NCBI GenBank assembly: GCA_947626035.1
Contig: CANQQR010000001.1
Span: 13,096 to 77,095 of the forward strand
Direction: 5' to 3'
DNA from: an uncultured Bacilli bacterium
GTDB taxonomy: Bacteria > Bacillota_I > Bacilli_A > RF39 > UBA660
DNA length: 64,000 nucleotides
Part shown: positions 2,997 through 47,054 of the stretch, piece after piece
How positions within the stretch are numbered: the stretch's first letter is position 1
Layout: every line of letters starts with the position of its first letter
Notes under the pieces: model-generated
What the model saw: only the letters and a program-made list of their open reading frames with translations
Told to the model about the DNA's origin: nothing
Databases searched by the model: none
Translations under genes and position numbers: made by a program

Positions 2997-3974
2997 ATGA
3001 AAAAGAAGTACTACTTAACACTGGACACTGAAACCGCAACTTTACCTTTTGCTAACTCTATGTGTAAAACCGCAAAAGAGAAGCAGAAAATCGCTATCGC
3101 GAAACCGCTTGTATATGATATTGGATGGACTATAACCGATAGGGCAGGGAATGTTATAAGGAATGAAAACTACCTGATTCAGGAAACATTCTTTGTACCC
3201 AACGTATTCAATACCGCATATTATAAAGACAAAAGACCTATTTACATGAAGTTACTGGAGGAAGGAAAGATTAAAACCGCTTGCTGGAATGACATTATAA
3301 AGGTACTAATTAAAGATTTAGATAGTTGCGATTTAACCACCGCCTATAATGCCTGTTTTGATTTTAAGAAAGCTATTCCCTTTACAGAGCGATATATTTA
3401 TCATCTGTATCGCGCAGACTATAACGAGTGGGAAACAATGCAAAAGAGAATGTGTAAGAAAATCCTTGCGGGGCAGGATGAAAGCGAAAACCCGGACTAC
3501 TTAACGCCAGTATTCAAAATCCGCGGGCGCGAATATCCGATAGCTGATTTGTGGGGTATCTCATGTGAAAGACTTATCAACGCTAACAAGTACCGCGATT
3601 ATTGCTTACAGAATAGACTTCTTACGGCAAGCGCGTTATACTTCAAGACAAGCGCGGAAACTAGCTTTCAGTACCTTATGAAAAATCATGAATTTGTGGA
3701 AGATCATACGGCATTGAGTGACGCGCAAATCGAAGCACAAATTCTTACAAAAGCACTCAAGAAGGGCAAGGTAGAACCGCAGATAAATGCGTTCCCATTC
3801 CGCGACCTGGGCACAACTTATGAATACGTATTAAAAAAGCCCAAATATAAACAAGTGGTGATTGACCTACTGAATGAATATTATGAAGCTTATTCACTTG
3901 AGCATGGTCAAAACGCATGGATAACAAAAATCGAAAATATCTTGCGAACGTTAGAACATGGGGACGAGGGTTGA
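2997..3974 (+). CDS. DEDDh-type 3'-5' exonuclease (DnaQ/RNase T-like)
   Basis: Exo I motif LTLDTETA near N-terminus and Exo III-like HTALSDAQ motif; 325 aa. Confidence 0.5.
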   Translation: MKKKYYLTLDTETATLPFANSMCKTAKEKQKIAIAKPLVYDIGWTITDRAGNVIRNENYLIQETFFVPNVFNTAYYKDKRPIYMKLLEEGKIKTACWNDIIKVLIKDLDSCDLTTAYNACFDFKKAIPFTERYIYHLYRADYNEWETMQKRMCKKILAGQDESENPDYLTPVFKIRGREYPIADLWGISCERLINANKYRDYCLQNRLLTASALYFKTSAETSFQYLMKNHEFVEDHTALSDAQIEAQILTKALKKGKVEPQINAFPFRDLGTTYEYVLKKPKYKQVVIDLLNEYYEAYSLEHGQNAWITKIENILRTLEHGDEG

Positions 3975-5185: not shown

Positions 5186-5593
5186 ATGACATATAAGCTA
5201 GGGAAACGCACAATCAGGATTCCAGATTCAGATATTGCGCGGTCGGTGGAAAAGTTAGGCATAACCAGAGATGAAGCAATCCAGATGTGGTTAGAGGATG
5301 AGGGATACCTGGAGAATGAAGAGCAAGAAGCCTTGGAGCGGAAAGCTAAAGAAAATCGCATAACCGCAACTATTCATCAGGCAAGCGCAGTCGATGTTCA
5401 AAAGAAAACTCAAAAGGAGAGAGTGAGAAAAGAAGATCCAACAAAGGAGCTAATTATAGCAAAAACCGCGGAATTTCTTAAAGAATATGCGGAAAATGTT
5501 ACAATAATTAACGTTGGAAAGCTGATTTCATTCAAAATTGGCGATGATGATTATGAATTTAACCTAATTCGCAAGAGAAAACCTAAAAAATAG
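5186..5593 (+). CDS. Hypothetical protein, paralog of 4001-4375
   Basis: ORF with GAGGGAATTAGC RBS; paralogy by shared motifs. Confidence 0.45.
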   Translation: MTYKLGKRTIRIPDSDIARSVEKLGITRDEAIQMWLEDEGYLENEEQEALERKAKENRITATIHQASAVDVQKKTQKERVRKEDPTKELIIAKTAEFLKEYAENVTIINVGKLISFKIGDDDYEFNLIRKRKPKK

Positions 5594-5875: not shown

Positions 5876-6100
5876 ATGGATTTTATTTGGTATCTTAACT
5901 GGGAGAATGAATCAGTAGCATTTTCTACTAAAAAGCAGGCTATTGAATATGTAACTAAGAGAAGCGAAGATGCAGATTGGGGCTTGCAGTGGGATGAATC
6001 ATTGGAAGATTACATTAGTTTTATTTCAACTTGGTACGATGGTGGAGAAGAAACTTATGTTATTAAAGCTGTGCCATTCAATCCAGACCCGGAGAGCTAG
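5876..6100 (+). CDS. Hypothetical small protein, weakly similar to 5648-5872
   Basis: ORF coupled to upstream gene; terminator hairpin 6108-6140. Confidence 0.35.
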   Translation: MDFIWYLNWENESVAFSTKKQAIEYVTKRSEDADWGLQWDESLEDYISFISTWYDGGEETYVIKAVPFNPDPES

Positions 6101-6276
6101 ATTCGCCGGGTCCTGATCTGGCATCAGGACCCGCTTTCCGCATTTTCACCTAGCATATGCAATTTTTCCCTGGAATTTTTGATCCTCCCCATAGCGCGAT
6201 TCATCCCGAATCAATCTCACCCCTCAACACCTCGCAAGATCCACCTTACCTACCTACCTCTTCCCAACCTGACCCC

Positions 6277-6740
6277 ATAACGCCACAGACCCACAACCGC
6301 CGCTCTTATAGCAAAAAATTGGTTCCTCCCGCCCCATTTTTTTATTGCTCTAACTGAGTTATTTTAACACCAAACTGCTACATTATTAAGTTTACGAGTA
6401 TTTCTCCACATTTTATATAACTTGCTTCAGAGAAGCTCGTATAACGCCACAGACCTACAACCGCCGCCTATAGCAAAAAATAGACCTCTCCGCTAACTCT
6501 TTTATTATAGTCTAACTAAGTTAGCGTAAGCCTAAACTGCTACATTATAACATTTCCGAGTCTTTCTCCATTCGAAAATCTTCTTGCCTCAGGCGGGGTC
6601 CCTCGCCCTATGACGGCCACATACCCGCAAACCGCGTTTTCTAAGTCCCTCCCGCGGCTCTTTTATTATAGTCTAACTAAGTTAATTTAACCCCATTTTG
6701 CTACAAATATACCCCGACGAAACTTTGTAAGTCCAAATTT
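6277..6740. repeat. Approximately three tandem direct repeats of ~164 bp (iteron-like), non-coding
   Basis: Unit ataacgccacagacc(c/t)acaaccgccgc...ctaactaagtt...aaactgctacatta... starts at 6277 and 6441; a partial third copy lies at ~6615-6735. Confidence 0.6.
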
Positions 6741-6874
6741 TTTCTCAGCTCAGATTGGCAGCTGAATTAAAATTTAAATACTTTATTGACTTTTGAAAAA
6801 AATTATGATATAATATATACATAAAAGATAGGAGATATTTTACTATTCACTTTTGTGTAAAGGAGAGCTGACTA

Positions 6875-7284
6875 TGGATATTAATAAGACTATTGCTGAG
6901 ATGATGAAAGATATGTCTGAGGATGACGTTAAGGCGGCGGTTAATAAAGCCATTGCCGCGGAGAGGATTCGCAGAGAAGCGGAGGCCGAAGCTAAAAAGA
7001 AAGCATCAGCTGCCTCAGAGCGGGATAATGTAGCTCAGTTACGGCGCATTGCCGCGAACACTATGTCTGGCTATATGAAGGCCGCGATGCCCAAGATTTT
7101 TGGTGATATTGACAATCTTGCGGACCAGATTGAGGAAGCGTTCATTGAGACCGAGGAGGAGTTTAACAGAACCAGAACTATGTTCGATATTATCATGGAC
7201 GCTCTTGAGGATGAGGACAAAGACAGTTCCAAAGAAACTGAAGATGATGATGTGATTGCAAACTTTTTAAGGCACCTCAGTTGA
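6875..7284 (+). CDS. Hypothetical acidic coiled-coil protein
   Basis: ATG 6875 after AAAGGAGAG RBS; consensus late-type promoter at ~6780-6815. Confidence 0.4.
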
Positions 7285-7675
7285 GAGGTGCCTTAGATGC
7301 AGTACATTGAAAAACGAATAAGGAGCTAGGGTAAGGGTAACGATGAACCTGCAAAGGATGAGGAAGACGGTGCCTGCCCACCACACTTCCTCAATCTTTA
7401 ATAATTTTAATTATTTCTGCTTTCACACTTCCTTAATCTTTACAATTTTAAGTAATCTTTATTCATCTTAAAAGATTTTTTTAACATCTTTTCAACCTTC
7501 CGCACCTTTTATCTACATTCATACGTATAATCTCTATATTCTTTTTAATAATTATGACACTCCTCCATGTTATAAATATTATACCCTATTCTTCTATTCT
7601 ACCTCTTTTATCAAAATAAAATTCAAAAACCAGTTTTGGAAATCATTTTTCAAATTTAAAAATGAAATTTTCAAA

Positions 7676-8074
7676 CTACCTCTGCCCATTTTCCACCTCC
7701 ATCAGTGGTTCAACACTTCCCATACCACTCAGCCTATCTGCTGCCCACTTCAAAATCTCCGTTATACTATGATCATCCCACATAGACTCATCAAACTCAG
7801 CAGATGCCTTCGCAACAACTTCCTTCTCCTTGTCACTCAAGGGCCTAATTTCACCATCTACATTATCTTCAACAACTTCATTTTCCTTATCCTTAAAACT
7901 CAAAAATACACTATCCTTCTGCTCTTGTGTTAATGGCTCAACCTTACCACCTAACACTTCACTAATCAAATCAGCAAAACGCGGCTTGCTTTCCGCAATT
8001 CCGCCAAAACTCTTCTTCTCTTCTGACATCCATAAACCTCCTAACAAAACTCCGCGGCTTGAGGTTACTTTCAA
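7676..8074 (-). CDS. Hypothetical protein
   Basis: ORF on minus strand; first gene of a minus-strand block. Confidence 0.35.
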   Translation of the reverse strand: MKVTSSRGVLLGGLWMSEEKKSFGGIAESKPRFADLISEVLGGKVEPLTQEQKDSVFLSFKDKENEVVEDNVDGEIRPLSDKEKEVVAKASAEFDESMWDDHSITEILKWAADRLSGMGSVEPLMEVENGQR

Positions 8075-8196
8075 ATCGAGGAATGAAAGCGCGAAGCGCT
8101 TGAATGACGAAGATTTGAAAGTAACCGAATGAGATATGAATTATATCGAGGAATGAAAGCGCGAAGCGCTTGAATGACGAAGATATAATTCATATC
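8063..8196. repeat. Twin long hairpins with an identical 34-nt loop-region motif (core shown in evidence) on different 15-bp stems
   Basis: Hairpin A 8063-8126 has stem ggttactttcaaatc/gatttgaaagtaacc; hairpin B 8133-8196 has stem gatatgaattatatc/gatataattcatatc; shared core aggaatgaaagcgcgaagcgcttgaatgacgaag. Confidence 0.6.
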
Positions 8197-8204
8197 GAAC
8201 TACT

Positions 8205-8280
8205 TAATAAAAGTTAAATATATAATATATATATTATATATATAATATATATTATAAGTTAAATAATAAAAGTTTTATAA
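8205..8280. repeat. Long AT-only palindrome (TA-repeat dyad)
   Basis: aaagttaaatatataatatatatattatatatataatatatattataagttaaataataaaagtt reads nearly the same on both strands. Confidence 0.55.
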
Positions 8281-8356: not shown

Positions 8357-8962
8357 TTAACACGCCGCTCTCTGAGGTCTATTAGTCACGCTCATAATCA
8401 CTATCTCTCTATGGTCAACATCAGTTTGAACCAACTTATACTCAATAAAATGCAATTCTTGAAGTACATATAAAATATTATTAATAACATGATTGTTACT
8501 TGTAGTGGTTGCCGCGATTCCAATAAAAGACTTCATTTGATTCATAGTAACAATAAAAGACTGTTCTTTATTAGCTATATATCTATTTAATAAATATACA
8601 TAAATACTAATAGTATATTGGCCTAAAGTATCTGTAAGCATTTCTAAAGTATCCAATGGTATCAATGCAGCATCTGCCTTATCAAGATAATTCAATCTGT
8701 AATACTTAGGTCTCACAGGATCTTCTTCAACCAAGCCAATCTTCAGCAAATCTTTAAACCTAGTAGAAGCAGTTTGTCTACTAATCTTCATCTTTTCACC
8801 AAGTGCTACATAATTAATTAATTTCTTTTCTACATACCTTCCGCCATCAAGTAATACTGACTCTTGCTGTAAAATTCCATAAAGTAAATCATTGTATTTC
8901 TTGTCAGCAGTATATTTTTTTGTATCAGGAATTTGTCTTGAATTACTCTGAATTGTTAGCAT
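8357..8962 (-). CDS. Putative DNA-binding protein (winged-helix-like)
   Basis: Segment ISRQTASTRFKDLLKIGLVEE resembles an HTH; function otherwise unknown. Confidence 0.35.
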   Translation of the reverse strand: MLTIQSNSRQIPDTKKYTADKKYNDLLYGILQQESVLLDGGRYVEKKLINYVALGEKMKISRQTASTRFKDLLKIGLVEEDPVRPKYYRLNYLDKADAALIPLDTLEMLTDTLGQYTISIYVYLLNRYIANKEQSFIVTMNQMKSFIGIAATTTSNNHVINNILYVLQELHFIEYKLVQTDVDHREIVIMSVTNRPQRAAC

Positions 8963-9164: not shown

Positions 9165-9764
9165 TTAAATATTAATATTCCACTCTGGTCGGAAAAGCTG
9201 TCTATAGTACGCTTCTCTATCAAATCTATTTACTTTATCGCATTTTTCAAGAATAGTAAAGTTGTCTTCTGTAAGAAAAGGTCTCTTCTGACAGTGCTGC
9301 TGGATCCGCTTGTCTAAATGTTCAGTAGATCCAACATACATAATCTTATTATTATAAATAATAGCATAAACATAATTAGTAGAATCATATTTTTTTACGT
9401 CTTTCTTTATAGAGCATAAAGATGTCCTAGATACCCCAATTAATTTACATATTTCGCTATCCGATTTTGCAGGGAATCTATTCTTACATATATGATAAGC
9501 TATATACACAGAGGAATCTTTAAATATATGATCTCTAATAAACTGTAACTCTTCTGTTGTCAAATCAAAGGGATCATTTACTATAATATTTTCATTGGAA
9601 TCTTCAGATATTATTTCATCATCAACCAACTCTTTATAATATTTAGCTAACGATTGTCTACATTTACCAACTATTTTTGATAAACTACTATAATTAATTT
9701 TTTTCATTGTATGCTGATGTAATAACAAAAATAAATATACATCATTGGTTAGTAAATACCACAT
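9165..9764 (-). CDS. HTH plus GIY-YIG nuclease-domain protein (free-standing homing-endonuclease-like)
   Basis: C-terminal YVYAIIYNNKIMYVGSTEHLDKRIQQH... matches the GIY-YIG core; N-terminal HTH-like segments; strong RBS TAAGGAGA before ATG at 9764. Confidence 0.5.
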   Translation of the reverse strand: MWYLLTNDVYLFLLLHQHTMKKINYSSLSKIVGKCRQSLAKYYKELVDDEIISEDSNENIIVNDPFDLTTEELQFIRDHIFKDSSVYIAYHICKNRFPAKSDSEICKLIGVSRTSLCSIKKDVKKYDSTNYVYAIIYNNKIMYVGSTEHLDKRIQQHCQKRPFLTEDNFTILEKCDKVNRFDREAYYRQLFRPEWNINI

Positions 9765-9934: not shown

Positions 9935-10255
9935 TTACCTAGGCATATCACTAAATGACCAATGCTCACCTTCACCATCAGTTAACATTAAGTAACCATA
10001 GTCAATTAACTCATCATAAAAACTCTCAAGTTCCTCCTCAGTCACATTACAGAACTTCATAATCTCTTCATTATCAAGCACATAATCATTATCATCTTCC
10101 AAAACGCCCAAACACATCCATACCTTAAAACCTTCTGTTGATAAAAGCTTCATAGCTATCTTAGTAGCCTGATCGTCAAATATTACTTCTCTCTTATCAT
10201 CACTGAACGCGGTTTGCAGGTTAATGGCGTCTTTGACCTTACTCTTTTTACCCAT
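9935..10255 (-). CDS. Hypothetical acidic protein
   Basis: ORF with GGAGGTGAAGATAG-type RBS on minus strand. Confidence 0.4.
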   Translation of the reverse strand: MGKKSKVKDAINLQTAFSDDKREVIFDDQATKIAMKLLSTEGFKVWMCLGVLEDDNDYVLDNEEIMKFCNVTEEELESFYDELIDYGYLMLTDGEGEHWSFSDMPR

Positions 10256-46696: not shown

Positions 46697-46835
46697 GTAT
46701 ATAGGCAAGTAGTTTTTTGCTACTTGCCTATTTTTTATTGCTGTAACTAAAGTTTTTAGTAGCGCATTTGACTTTCTTCGAAAATTATTATATAATATAG
46801 TTATAAAAGAAAATAACTTAGTTAGGAGCAATAAA

Positions 46836-47054
46836 ATGTATAAAAGAAATGATGTAATTTTGCCAGATGATATTAATGTATCAGAATATTATAGTCCGGA
46901 GCTTGAAGGTCTTTCTTTATATATAAAATATCCATTTCACAAGTATTCGAAAGATTTTATTGAATCTATTGTTAATGAGTTTATTAACAATGATCCAGAG
47001 GTTGCCGCAGTTTATGTAGATTATGATGGATATACGGAGGTTACTGAAAAATAA
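46836..47054 (+). CDS. Hypothetical small protein
   Basis: ORF behind promoter ~46770-46800. Confidence 0.35.
   Translation: MYKRNDVILPDDINVSEYYSPELEGLSLYIKYPFHKYSKDFIESIVNEFINNDPEVAAVYVDYDGYTEVTEK

What the first reader, a model, noticed from the sequence alone, without database searches (positions are those of the whole stretch)
6277..6740. Iteron-like ~164-bp tandem repeats in a gene-free 700-bp region
Two full repeats and one partial repeat share blocks ataacgccacagacc, aaccgccgc, ctaactaagtt and aaactgctacatta. They lie between the early cassette region and the next promoter. Non-coding direct repeats of this length are characteristic of replication origins, of packaging (pac) sites or of regulatory RNA clusters.
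Basis: seen in the sequence. Interest (0 to 1): 0.5.

Follow-up and report, generated by a model that had tools for sequence, protein, structure and literature searches.

The report
Tandem non-coding repeats with palindromic core
Three real ~165-bp non-coding repeats, each built around the same short palindrome, lie in an untranslated spacer at the end of a gut phage's early-gene cassette; they look more like repeated protein-binding sites than a replication origin, packaging site or RNA genes, and close relatives do without them.

Summary
Window 6277-6770 holds three head-to-tail non-coding units of 164, 170 and about 160 bp. They sit in a 773-bp gene-free gap (6101-6873) and are identical in at least four independent assemblies.

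The origin, pac and RNA-cluster readings found no positive support:
- The period is 162-170 bp, not about 20.
- There is no AT-rich unwinding element, no DnaA-box excess and no Rfam hit.
- No unit carries one of the phage's canonical promoters, and the units share no secondary structure on either strand.
- Copy number among close relatives is 3, 2, 1 or 0, so the units are dispensable.

What is conserved is a length-fixed core of about 60 bp: CTCYCSGC, 17-18 nt, CTAACTNAGTTA, 14 nt, TGCT. Its 5+5-bp inverted repeat is invariant in all 12 unit copies from two phage lineages. One more copy lies between a promoter and the ribosome-binding site at 46.8 kb.

The best reading, at about 0.35, is an array of operator-like binding sites that expands and contracts by unequal recombination. 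The surrounding spacer is conserved across relatives as a long, C-rich, untranslated stretch. Function is inferred, not shown. Interest is modest.

The parts
6108..6132 (+). Hairpin (GGGTCCTGAT / ATCAGGACCC) directly after the stop of the 74-aa gene 5876-6100. It is a terminator-like end of the last multi-gene unit of the early cassette, with a poor U tract.
   Evidence: Sequence and RNAfold. It is conserved in L167 and L009 with a compensatory change on both arms in L009 (CCAGAT/ATCTGG).
6133..6276 (+). Very C-rich, G-poor leader of the gap (C 40%, G 10%).
   Evidence: Composition. It is partly alignable to L167 and L009.
6277..6440 (.). Repeat unit 1 (164 bp).
6441..6610 (.). Repeat unit 2 (170 bp). 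It carries an extra direct half-site CTAACT at 6493-6498.
6611..6770 (.). Repeat unit 3 (about 160 bp). It is the most diverged copy and lacks the AGCAAAAAAT block.
   Evidence: nhmmer E = 5e-34 for the third copy.
6350..6362 (.). Palindromic core of unit 1, CTAACTGAGTTAT.
6512..6524 (.). Palindromic core of unit 2, CTAACTAAGTTAG (perfect 6+1+6).
6673..6685 (.). Palindromic core of unit 3, CTAACTAAGTTAA.
6786..6814 (+). Strong sigma-70-type promoter (TTGACT-17-TGATATAAT) of the next gene. It is not part of the repeat, and it is the only canonical phage promoter in the gap.
   Evidence: 11 of 12 matches, TG present. PWM score 51.2 against 1.5 or less for anything inside the units.
6874..7284 (+). 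136-aa acidic, fast-evolving protein. It is the gene served by the gap's promoter and the last rightward gene before the convergent strand switch.
   Evidence: no k-mer-detectable homologue; 29% identity to the L009 counterpart. An iterated HMM finds it in 32 distinct related loci.
46813..46825. Fourth copy of the palindrome (ATAACTTAGTTAG). It lies between a canonical promoter (-35 at 46769, -10 TATAAT ending about 46797, my reading) and the SD/ATG (46836) of a 72-aa gene. About 30 nt here resemble the minus strand of unit 1.

Best explanation
The three units are a lineage-specific tandem array of cis-acting DNA modules. Each module keeps a core of about 60 bp with fixed spacing: CTCYCSGC, 17-18 nt, CTAACTNAGTTA, 14 nt, TGCT. 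The invariant part is a 5+5-bp inverted repeat, TAACT-N-AGTTA.

The most likely working is that a sequence-specific dimeric DNA-binding protein, from the phage or the host, occupies one site per unit. It would also occupy the site between promoter and ribosome-binding site at 46.8 kb. Bound at the end of the rightward early cassette, 113-436 bp upstream of the strong promoter at 6786, the array would act as a regulatory or titrating element. It could block read-through from the early operon, modulate the 6786 promoter, or both.

The array grows and shrinks by unequal recombination, giving 0-3 copies in close relatives. It therefore tunes rather than provides an essential function.

Shown: the repeats, their non-coding nature, the conserved core and its fixed spacing, the copy-number variation, the absence of a shared RNA fold and of canonical promoters, and the fourth site.

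Inferred: that a protein binds, which protein it is, and what binding does.
For: 1. The palindrome TAACTNAGTTA occurs 5 times in the window against 0.22 expected. Three are in register in the units, and one sits between a promoter and the SD at 46.8 kb.
2. It is invariant in all 12 unit copies of the window phage and the L167-like phages. Overall identity between the two lineages' units is only 48-58%, yet the core aligns with a single 1-nt indel (in the B-type copies).
3. In 1.9 Mb of related loci, leaving aside the seven contigs (L171-L177) that were fetched by searching for this very motif, it occurs nowhere except in these units.
4. No position of the 5+5 arms ever varies. This points to sequence recognition rather than mere pairing.
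5. Unit 2 and the B-type units carry a third half-site (C[T/C]AACT) 12 nt upstream.
6. RNA readings fail. RNAalifold finds no shared structure on either strand beyond the palindrome. The L167 array folds no better than shuffles (z = +0.6 and +1.0). There is no Rfam hit.
7. A winged-helix protein gene lies 1.6 kb away, at 8357-8962.
Against: - No binding protein is identified.
- The half-site hexamer is not enriched genome-wide.
- Spacings of 162, 161 and 171 bp are not whole numbers of helical turns.
- The units are 113-436 bp from the nearest promoter, which is far for a classical operator.
- The fourth site rests on one 13-nt match plus about 30 nt of flanking similarity (E about 0.02).
- One close lineage lacks the units (L009/L010), so any function is dispensable.
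- Only two lineages carry the motif, and within each the copies are closely related. The number of independent observations is therefore small.
Confidence: 0.35

Rival explanations
1. Functionless by-product. The gap is a recombination-prone spacer in which ~160-190-bp segments duplicate and then decay. These segments could be former promoter, 5'-UTR and RBS cassettes. The conserved core would then reflect recent common descent or gene conversion rather than selection.
For: - Copy number is 3, 2, 1 or 0 among close relatives.
- Independent tandem duplications occur in the same gap in other clades: L044 has 162 bp x 2.4 at 100% identity, and L018 has 186 bp x 1.9 with the promoter inside the unit.
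- Paralogues within the window are more alike (59-68%) than copies across lineages (48-58%), as gene conversion would give.
- The minus strand of unit 1 resembles the 5'-UTR/SD/ATG of the gene at 46836.
Against: - The 10 palindrome positions and the spacing of the core are unchanged in all 12 copies, while the flanks have dropped to about 50% identity.
- Unit 1 shares its right flank with the A-type units and unit 2 its left flank with the B-type units. At least two copies therefore seem older than the split of the two lineages, and both kept the core.
Confidence: 0.2
2. Small RNA genes (a regulatory RNA cluster). Each unit would be a minus-strand transcription unit running from a -10-like box (TGTTATAATG in unit 2) through the palindrome hairpin to a U tract.
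For: - The minus strand of the window array folds better than shuffles (z = -3.4, against -0.7 for the plus strand).
- Unit 2 has an extended -10 box and a long hairpin followed by AUUUUUUGC.
- L167 has a good minus-strand intrinsic terminator at the A/B unit boundary.
- The gap has the GC skew of minus-strand sense sequence in 16 of 16 relatives.
Against: - No unit element scores as one of this phage's canonical promoters on either strand. The best is 1.5, against 15-51 for the 32 real-looking sites.
- No terminator is predicted at 6100-6800.
- The long hairpin exists only in unit 2.
- RNAalifold finds no consensus structure.
- The L167 array has z = +0.6.
- The second candidate terminator is destroyed in L178 and L181.
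- There is no Rfam match.
Confidence: 0.15
3. Unstructured C-rich plus-strand RNA. The gap would be a Rho-utilisation or termination zone, or a long 3'-UTR, that insulates the early operon from the next promoter. The repeats would merely multiply C-rich segments.
For: - Plus-strand C exceeds G throughout. The skew is -0.41 over 6133-6785, and 6133-6276 is 40% C and 10% G.
- The skew is negative in the syntenic gap of all 16 relatives, but not in the other untranslated gaps of the cassette.
- The plus strand is no more structured than shuffles.
- The upstream hairpin has a poor U tract.
Against: - It does not explain an invariant palindrome with fixed spacing.
- Some relatives have strong promoters firing into the gap (L036).
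- Others hold a minus-strand gene in the gap (L136, L104), which could explain the skew instead.
- The Rho dependence of the unknown host is untested.
Confidence: 0.12
4. Replication origin or accessory replication site. An initiator would bind the repeated motif, as in origins with long repeats that each carry short binding sites.
For: - The repeated binding-type motif itself.
- A 106-aa protein at 9935-10255 has weak DnaD-like / replication-initiator PHROG hits (E = 5e-4 and 5e-3).
- The DnaB-like helicase and topoisomerase genes show the phage replicates its own DNA.
Against: - The period is 162-170 bp and the core is palindromic, not a phased direct iteron.
- The units are 36-54% GC per 100-nt window (42% overall), against a genome at about 38%, and contain no AT-rich unwinding stretch.
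- DnaA boxes are not enriched: 27 against 19.8 +/- 4.8.
- The units are absent or present in a single copy in close relatives.
- Much more iteron-like arrays exist elsewhere in the same phage: GTTAAAGTG arrays in L006 and the 8-13-nt T-rich arrays just right of the 136-aa gene.
- GC-skew turns follow gene orientation only.
Confidence: 0.1
5. Packaging (pac) signal or landmark of a genome end.
For: - Short contigs of the same phage begin at 6255-6275 and at 6459.
- 13 of 32 related contigs end close by.
- The layout recalls the untranslated repeat regions of the phage T5 terminal repeat (10.1101/866236).
Against: - The related contigs end 40-320 nt beyond the next gene. In the 62% clade, the only one aligned, they end in a perfect 10-nt tandem array, an ordinary cause of assembly breaks.
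- The same-phage contig starts are at 3-5x coverage and fall on the repeat itself, as expected from repeat-induced breaks.
- No terminase gene is in the window.
- The units are dispensable in relatives.
Confidence: 0.05

Closest known systems
Untranslated repeat regions of the phage T5 left terminal repeat, including the injection stop signal region (Davison, bioRxiv 10.1101/866236)
   Same: Both have several gene-free repeat regions interspersed in a ~10-16-kb cassette of small early genes driven by sigma-70 promoters. In both, the last region is a long non-coding stretch at the end of the cassette that contains long direct repeats, palindromes and an array of short repeats. A block of the last region recurs inverted in an upstream region (here L006 6680-6712). 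The non-coding gap persists while the neighbouring genes turn over.
   Different: There is no sequence or protein similarity to T5. There is no set of DnaA boxes. The repeat content is not conserved in order or sequence across relatives, whereas the T5 regions are. Terminal repeats and two-step injection are unknown for this phage.
Phage P4 crr (cis replication region): two direct 120-bp repeats, each carrying short initiator-binding sites (recalled from the literature, not checked here)
   Same: Long direct repeats (over 100 bp) whose functional part is a short protein-binding motif. Further copies of the motif lie at a distant second locus.
   Different: The P4 motif is a direct octamer bound by the alpha primase-helicase at ori. 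Here the motif is a palindrome and the distant copy sits in a promoter leader. No origin is identified, and the copies are dispensable in relatives.
Centromere or operator arrays built from tandem units that each hold one palindrome, such as F-plasmid sopC (43-bp units) and KorB operators on RK2 (recalled knowledge)
   Same: One short inverted repeat per tandem unit, plus additional single sites at promoters elsewhere.
   Different: The units here are about four times longer. No ParA/ParB-type genes were seen in the parts of the window that were annotated. The palindrome sequence is unrelated to those systems.
Promoter-early stem-loop (PeSL) regulatory cassettes of T4-type phages (recalled knowledge)
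   Same: Regulatory modules are duplicated and shuffled in hyperplastic early regions. In relative L018 the duplicated unit does contain the early promoter.
   Different: The window units contain no canonical promoter on either strand, and their boundary hairpins are not followed by U tracts.

Membership tests
Iteron-type replication origin | Several short (about 17-22 bp) direct repeats, usually in helical phase | tested here: not met
   The period is 162, 161-164 and 170 bp. The conserved core is an inverted repeat with one site per unit.
Iteron-type replication origin | Adjacent AT-rich DNA-unwinding element and/or DnaA boxes | tested here: not met
   The units are 36-54% GC per 100-nt window (42% overall), above the genome mean. 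TTATCCACA with up to 1 mismatch occurs 27 times against 19.8 +/- 4.8 expected, and once in the units.
Iteron-type replication origin | Cognate initiator gene next to or overlapping the repeats | tested here: inconclusive
   The only candidates are a weak DnaD-like / initiator PHROG hit for the 106-aa protein at 9935-10255 (E = 5e-4) and a winged-helix protein at 8357-8962.
Iteron-type replication origin | Conservation in close relatives | tested here: not met
   There are 3 copies in the window phage, 2 in L167, L178/L179 (the same sequence in two contigs), L181 and L182, 1 in L183 and 0 in L009/L010. The units are unalignable in more distant relatives.
pac / cos packaging site or genome terminus | Coincides with molecule ends (read-start pile-up, coverage step) | not testable with these tools
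   No reads are available. Contig ends are only a proxy for molecule ends.
pac / cos packaging site or genome terminus | Independent contigs end at the element | tested here: not met
   13 of 32 related contigs end 40-320 nt beyond the next gene; in the 62% clade, the only one aligned, at a perfect 10-nt tandem array. Only low-coverage contigs of the same phage start at the units.
Regulatory RNA / sRNA gene cluster | Match to a described RNA family | tested here: not met
   Rfam 15 at gathering thresholds and at E up to 10 gives nothing in 6100-6870 on either strand.
Regulatory RNA / sRNA gene cluster | Own promoter and terminator per unit | tested here: not met
   The PWM of the phage's 28 promoters gives 51.2 at 6776-6830 and 1.5 or less inside the units. 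No terminator-like site lies in 6100-6800. Weak -10-like boxes on the minus strand remain possible.
Regulatory RNA / sRNA gene cluster | Conserved secondary structure with covariation | tested here: not met
   RNAalifold on 5 units gives 0 pairs on the plus strand and only the 5-bp palindrome on the minus strand, with no compensatory change. The L167 array has z = +0.6 and +1.0.
Operator-type protein-binding site array | Two-fold symmetric site, invariant in sequence, over-represented | tested here: met
   TAACTNAGTTA occurs 5 times against 0.22 expected. It is invariant in 12 unit copies of two lineages.
Operator-type protein-binding site array | Sites overlap or closely flank regulated promoters | tested here: inconclusive
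   The 46.8-kb site lies between the -10 box and the SD of a canonical promoter. The three unit sites lie 113-436 bp upstream of the 6786 promoter.
Operator-type protein-binding site array | Identified cognate DNA-binding protein | not testable with these tools
   The candidate winged-helix gene at 8357-8962 is only a neighbour. Co-occurrence could not be tested because the related contigs are too short.
T5-type untranslated repeat region / injection stop signal | Conserved ordered set of repeats and 8 DnaA boxes at the end of the first-step-transfer DNA | tested here: not met
   There is no DnaA-box set, and the repeats are not conserved in order or sequence among relatives. Position relative to a terminal repeat is unknown.

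The most novel reading that the evidence does not exclude
The whole conserved gap would be the cis-acting control region of a staged DNA entry, or of an early-to-middle switch, analogous to the phage T5 injection-stop region. The gap is long, C-rich and untranslated, sits at the end of the early cassette, holds expandable ~160-bp modules, and is followed by an array of 8-13-nt repeats at the convergent junction. The phages concerned are a very large, uncultivated group of ~120-190-kb phages of gut Clostridia. In this reading the palindrome-bearing units are the lineage-specific docking sites of the protein that stops or restarts the process.
Probability: 0.07. Interest if true: 0.7.

Novelty: new variant of a known kind. 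Interest (0 to 1): 0.3.

Why it matters
The exonuclease-like gene that marks this early cassette has about 2,500 distinct (90%-identity) relatives in gut and rumen metagenomes, so the phage group is abundant but uncharacterised. A conserved long untranslated spacer at the end of its early cassette is a candidate control point of the infection programme. That spacer repeatedly spawns ~160-190-bp tandem modules. The palindrome gives a concrete, testable handle: one defined 13-bp site, four copies, and a nearby winged-helix candidate.

If the modules are only recombination debris, the result is still useful. It warns against calling long intergenic tandem repeats 'iterons' or origins in phage annotation. 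It also explains why assemblies of these phages break here.

Tried and rejected
1. Known phage DNA. blastn and megablast of the region and of 20 kb against 50,697 phage records gave no match. tblastn of the 136-aa protein also gave none.
2. Exact-motif scans of IMG/VR with two unit patterns gave nothing. A looser palindrome+GCSGRGAG pattern gave 7 hits, all unrelated chance matches. A scan of GTDB genomes for the core gave 0.
3. The homologue search with the 136-aa protein found only itself. It was recovered later with an iterated HMM on fetched loci.
4. A plus-strand promoter in each unit (TAGACC-16-TATTAT) is not conserved in the L167 units and scores nothing with the phage promoter PWM.
5. 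A minus-strand promoter-hairpin-U-tract cassette holds only for unit 2. It was rejected as a general model.
6. Hidden small ORFs or decayed minus-strand genes. No conserved ORF exists. There is no tblastn similarity to the minus-strand genes that occupy the gap in L136 and L104.
7. A lambda-type boxA (CGCTCTTA) is present in unit 1 only.
8. Diversity-generating retroelement TR/VR. No reverse transcriptase was noticed in the annotated part of the neighbourhood, and by eye the differences between units are not adenine-specific.
9. CRISPR-repeat or tracrRNA mimicry. No similarity held up on inspection.
10. Orthology of unit 1 with the A-type units and of unit 2 with the B-type units. Only flank signatures support it. 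Whole-unit identities are ambiguous (58 against 51%, and 54 against 55%), so the history is described as mosaic.
11. The exonuclease-like protein profile against PDB sequences gave nothing useful.

Full report
**What the window is.** The 64-kb window is part of a large uncultivated phage.
- It encodes a type II topoisomerase, a DnaB-like helicase, a Ro60-like protein, a radical-SAM enzyme and an endolysin-like protein.
- It carries 16-17 tRNA genes at 20-31 kb.
- It has about 30 copies of one long sigma-70-type promoter consensus.
- Nothing in 50,697 deposited phage records is close. There is no DNA match, and the topoisomerase is at most 40% identical.
- The same phage occurs in several ENA and Logan assemblies. 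One of them, L006, extends 9.5 kb to the left of the window.
- Relatives binned in MAGs are labelled mainly Oscillospiraceae, Acutalibacteraceae, Lachnospiraceae and Eubacteriales, with two Muribaculaceae bins. Together with the strong Shine-Dalgarno sites, this suggests a Clostridia host. That is a weak inference.

**The observation.** The repeat is real.
- TRF reports 6277-6570 with period 162 and score 386.
- The repeat finder places three in-register copies of a 48-nt block and a 27-nt block.
- The self-BLAST has E = 3.7e-26.
- A composite motif occurs 3 times against 0.00 expected.
- The units are 6277-6440, 6441-6610 and 6611-~6770. The third is full length but more diverged and lacks 11 nt.
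- They lie in a 773-bp stretch (6101-6873) without a credible ORF.
- On the left is the hairpin that ends the 74-aa gene (6108-6132).
- On the right is a strong promoter (6786-6814) that serves a 136-aa acidic protein (6874-7284).
- The sequence is identical in independent assemblies. Four short contigs start at or in the array, as repeats at 3-5x coverage would cause.

**Relatives.** The 136-aa protein has no k-mer-detectable homologue. The 325-aa exonuclease-like protein 2.3 kb upstream (2997-3974) has 2,499 homologues, and the 135-aa protein (5186-5593) has 976. Using them I fetched about 170 related loci.
- An iterated HMM finds the counterpart of the 136-aa gene in 32 distinct loci.
- In almost all of them it is preceded by a long gene-free gap. 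The gap is 350-2,229 nt, and about 742 nt in the best-sampled clade.
- The gap has C > G on the plus strand in all 16 relatives examined. The skew runs from -0.09 to -0.41, and the window is the most extreme. The plus-strand genes have +0.13.
- The other untranslated gaps of the same cassette are not skewed.
- The gap itself is therefore an old, conserved feature. Its sequence is not.

**The units in relatives.**
- A profile of the units finds them only in the window phage and in one related lineage, whose neighbouring proteins are 81-85% identical. In that lineage L167, L178/L179 (the same sequence in two contigs), L181 and L182 have two units (A and B, 171 bp apart), and L183 has one.
- The equally close L009/L010 lineage keeps the upstream hairpin and the downstream promoter but has no units. 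It has only a single 30-nt block resembling the start of a unit.
- More distant clades have unrelated sequence in the gap, with their own tandem duplications of similar size. L044 has 162 bp x 2.4 at 100% identity. L018 has 186 bp x 1.9, and that unit contains the promoter. L036 has a degenerate pair 161 bp apart.
- Some relatives hold a minus-strand gene of unknown family in the gap.
- The units are thus dispensable, variable in number and lineage-specific, in a spacer that is prone to ~160-190-bp duplications.

**What is conserved inside the units.** I aligned 12 unit copies from the two lineages.
- Overall identity between lineages is 48-58%.
- A stretch of about 60 bp aligns with a single 1-nt indel (in the B-type copies) and contains the fixed blocks CTCYCSGC, 17-18 nt, CTAACTNAGTTA, 14 nt, TGCT.
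- The 5+5-bp inverted repeat TAACT-N-AGTTA never varies.
- It occurs 5 times in the window against 0.22 expected.
- It occurs nowhere else in 1.9 Mb of related loci, apart from seven unrelated contigs that were fetched by searching for this motif.
- Unit 2 and the B-type units carry an extra direct half-site 12 nt upstream.
- One further copy, at 46813-46825, lies between a canonical promoter and the SD/ATG of a 72-aa gene. About 30 nt there resemble the minus strand of unit 1.
- Unit 1 shares its right flank with the A-type units and unit 2 its left flank with the B-type units. Whole-unit identities are ambiguous, so the history looks mosaic: an old duplication followed by exchange between copies. 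This is an inference.

**Tests of the RNA reading.**
- Rfam gives nothing at gathering thresholds or at E up to 10.
- A weight matrix built from 28 of the phage's own promoters scores 51.2 at the real promoter and at most 1.5 inside the units, on either strand.
- No terminator-like site is predicted in 6100-6800.
- The minus strand of the window array folds better than shuffles (z = -3.4, against -0.7 for the plus strand). This comes from one long hairpin peculiar to unit 2.
- RNAalifold on five units finds no shared pairs beyond the palindrome and no compensatory change.
- The orthologous L167 array folds no better than shuffles on either strand.
- L167 does have one good minus-strand terminator at the A/B boundary and a bidirectional one before the promoter. 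A second candidate is destroyed in L178 and L181.
- A cluster of structured RNAs, or of sRNA genes with their own signals, is therefore not supported. It is not excluded for weak promoters.

**Tests of the origin and packaging readings.**
- The period, the palindromic rather than direct core and the above-average GC content all depart from the defining features of iteron origins. So does the lack of DnaA-box enrichment.
- GC-skew turning points simply follow gene orientation.
- A weak DnaD-like hit 3.2 kb away and a winged-helix gene 1.6 kb away keep a replication link possible but thin.
- The same phage has far more iteron-like arrays elsewhere: dense GTTAAAGTG / CACTTTAA arrays in three untranslated gaps left of the window.
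- Thirteen of 32 related contigs end 40-320 nt beyond the 136-aa gene. In the 62% clade, the only one aligned, the break is at a perfect 10-nt array (TTCACTTAAT x 12), which is enough to break assemblies. Other clades have 8-13-nt T-rich arrays at the same place. The window has a degenerate version at 7376-7470. None of these ends falls in the units.

**Conclusion.** The most economical reading is this. The spacer is a conserved, C-rich, untranslated boundary element of the early cassette. In this lineage it has acquired and amplified a module whose selected part is a short two-fold symmetric site with fixed flanking blocks. That is the signature of a sequence-specific DNA-binding protein site rather than of an RNA fold, an iteron origin or a pac site.
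- I put this at about 0.35.
- Functionless duplication is at about 0.2, minus-strand sRNAs at 0.15 and a C-rich termination zone at 0.12.
- An origin is at 0.1 and a pac site or terminus at 0.05.
- The overall layout resembles the untranslated repeat regions of the phage T5 terminal repeat (10.1101/866236). There is no homology, and the defining T5 features were not met.
- The element is a new variant of a familiar kind of thing, of modest interest in itself. The conserved spacer, and the short-repeat arrays around it in this very abundant phage group, deserve a proper look with reads and transcript data.

Noticed in passing
window 8057-8200: Two adjacent long hairpins share an identical ~38-nt insert (TCGAGGAATGAAAGCGCGAAGCGCTTGAATGACGAAGA) but have completely different 15-bp outer stems. 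The folding z-score is about -11 on both strands. They lie just upstream of the minus-strand gene 7676-8029, next to a pure A/T stretch at 8215-8260. There is no Rfam match.
   Followed up: partly
window 30630-32266: A Ro60/TROVE-like gene (30770-32266, phrog_850, E = 4.5e-116) is directly preceded by an odd tRNA-like element (30630-30701). ARAGORN calls it 'tRNA-???' with a 2-base anticodon, and Rfam scores it as tRNA at 48.6 bits. It could be a Y-RNA-like partner of Ro.
   Followed up: no
L006 2897-3610, 4625-5576 and 6185-6879 (same phage, left of the window): Three untranslated gaps inside the early cassette are packed with short repeats, including GTTAAAGTG / CACTTTAA and TTTCGAAAC (for example period 40 x 5.3 at 3154-3365). 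Relatives carry AACTAAC / AAGTTAG arrays upstream of the exonuclease-like gene. These arrays are much more iteron-like than the finding.
   Followed up: partly
window 7376-7470; L036 12309-12430; L014, L012, L143 and L105 downstream of the 136-aa gene homologue: A conserved GC-rich motif (GTGCC..CACCAC) is followed by an array of 8-13-nt T-rich direct repeats at the convergent gene junction. The array is perfect (TTCACTTAAT x 12) in one clade, where many large contigs end. It is degenerate in the window.
   Followed up: partly
window, about 30 sites (e.g. 6786, 11428, 16734, 21121, 27877, 46768, 55241, 61111): One extended early-promoter consensus (TTGAyTTTTnAAAAAAnTTTTGnTATAATATATA, about 50 nt) is repeated about 30 times. 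Of the 28 sites used to build the matrix, 25 are on the plus strand and 3 on the minus strand.
   Followed up: partly
L006 6680-6712 (same phage, 2.8 kb left of the window start): An inverted copy of the 27-nt block that starts each unit (ATAACGCCA..GACCC..AACC.GCG) lies in an upstream untranslated gap. A weaker one lies at L006 1316-1344, just downstream of a promoter.
   Followed up: partly
window 2997-3974: A 325-aa protein with an LDTETAT motif, which reads like a DEDD-type exonuclease motif by eye. It is the one well-conserved gene of the early cassette, with 2,499 homologues in gut and rumen metagenomes. It has no Pfam or PDB sequence match.
   Followed up: partly
window 9165-9764 and 9935-10255 (minus strand): A GIY-YIG endonuclease gene (probably a mobile homing endonuclease) sits next to a 106-aa protein that has weak DnaD-like / replication-initiator hits.
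   Followed up: no
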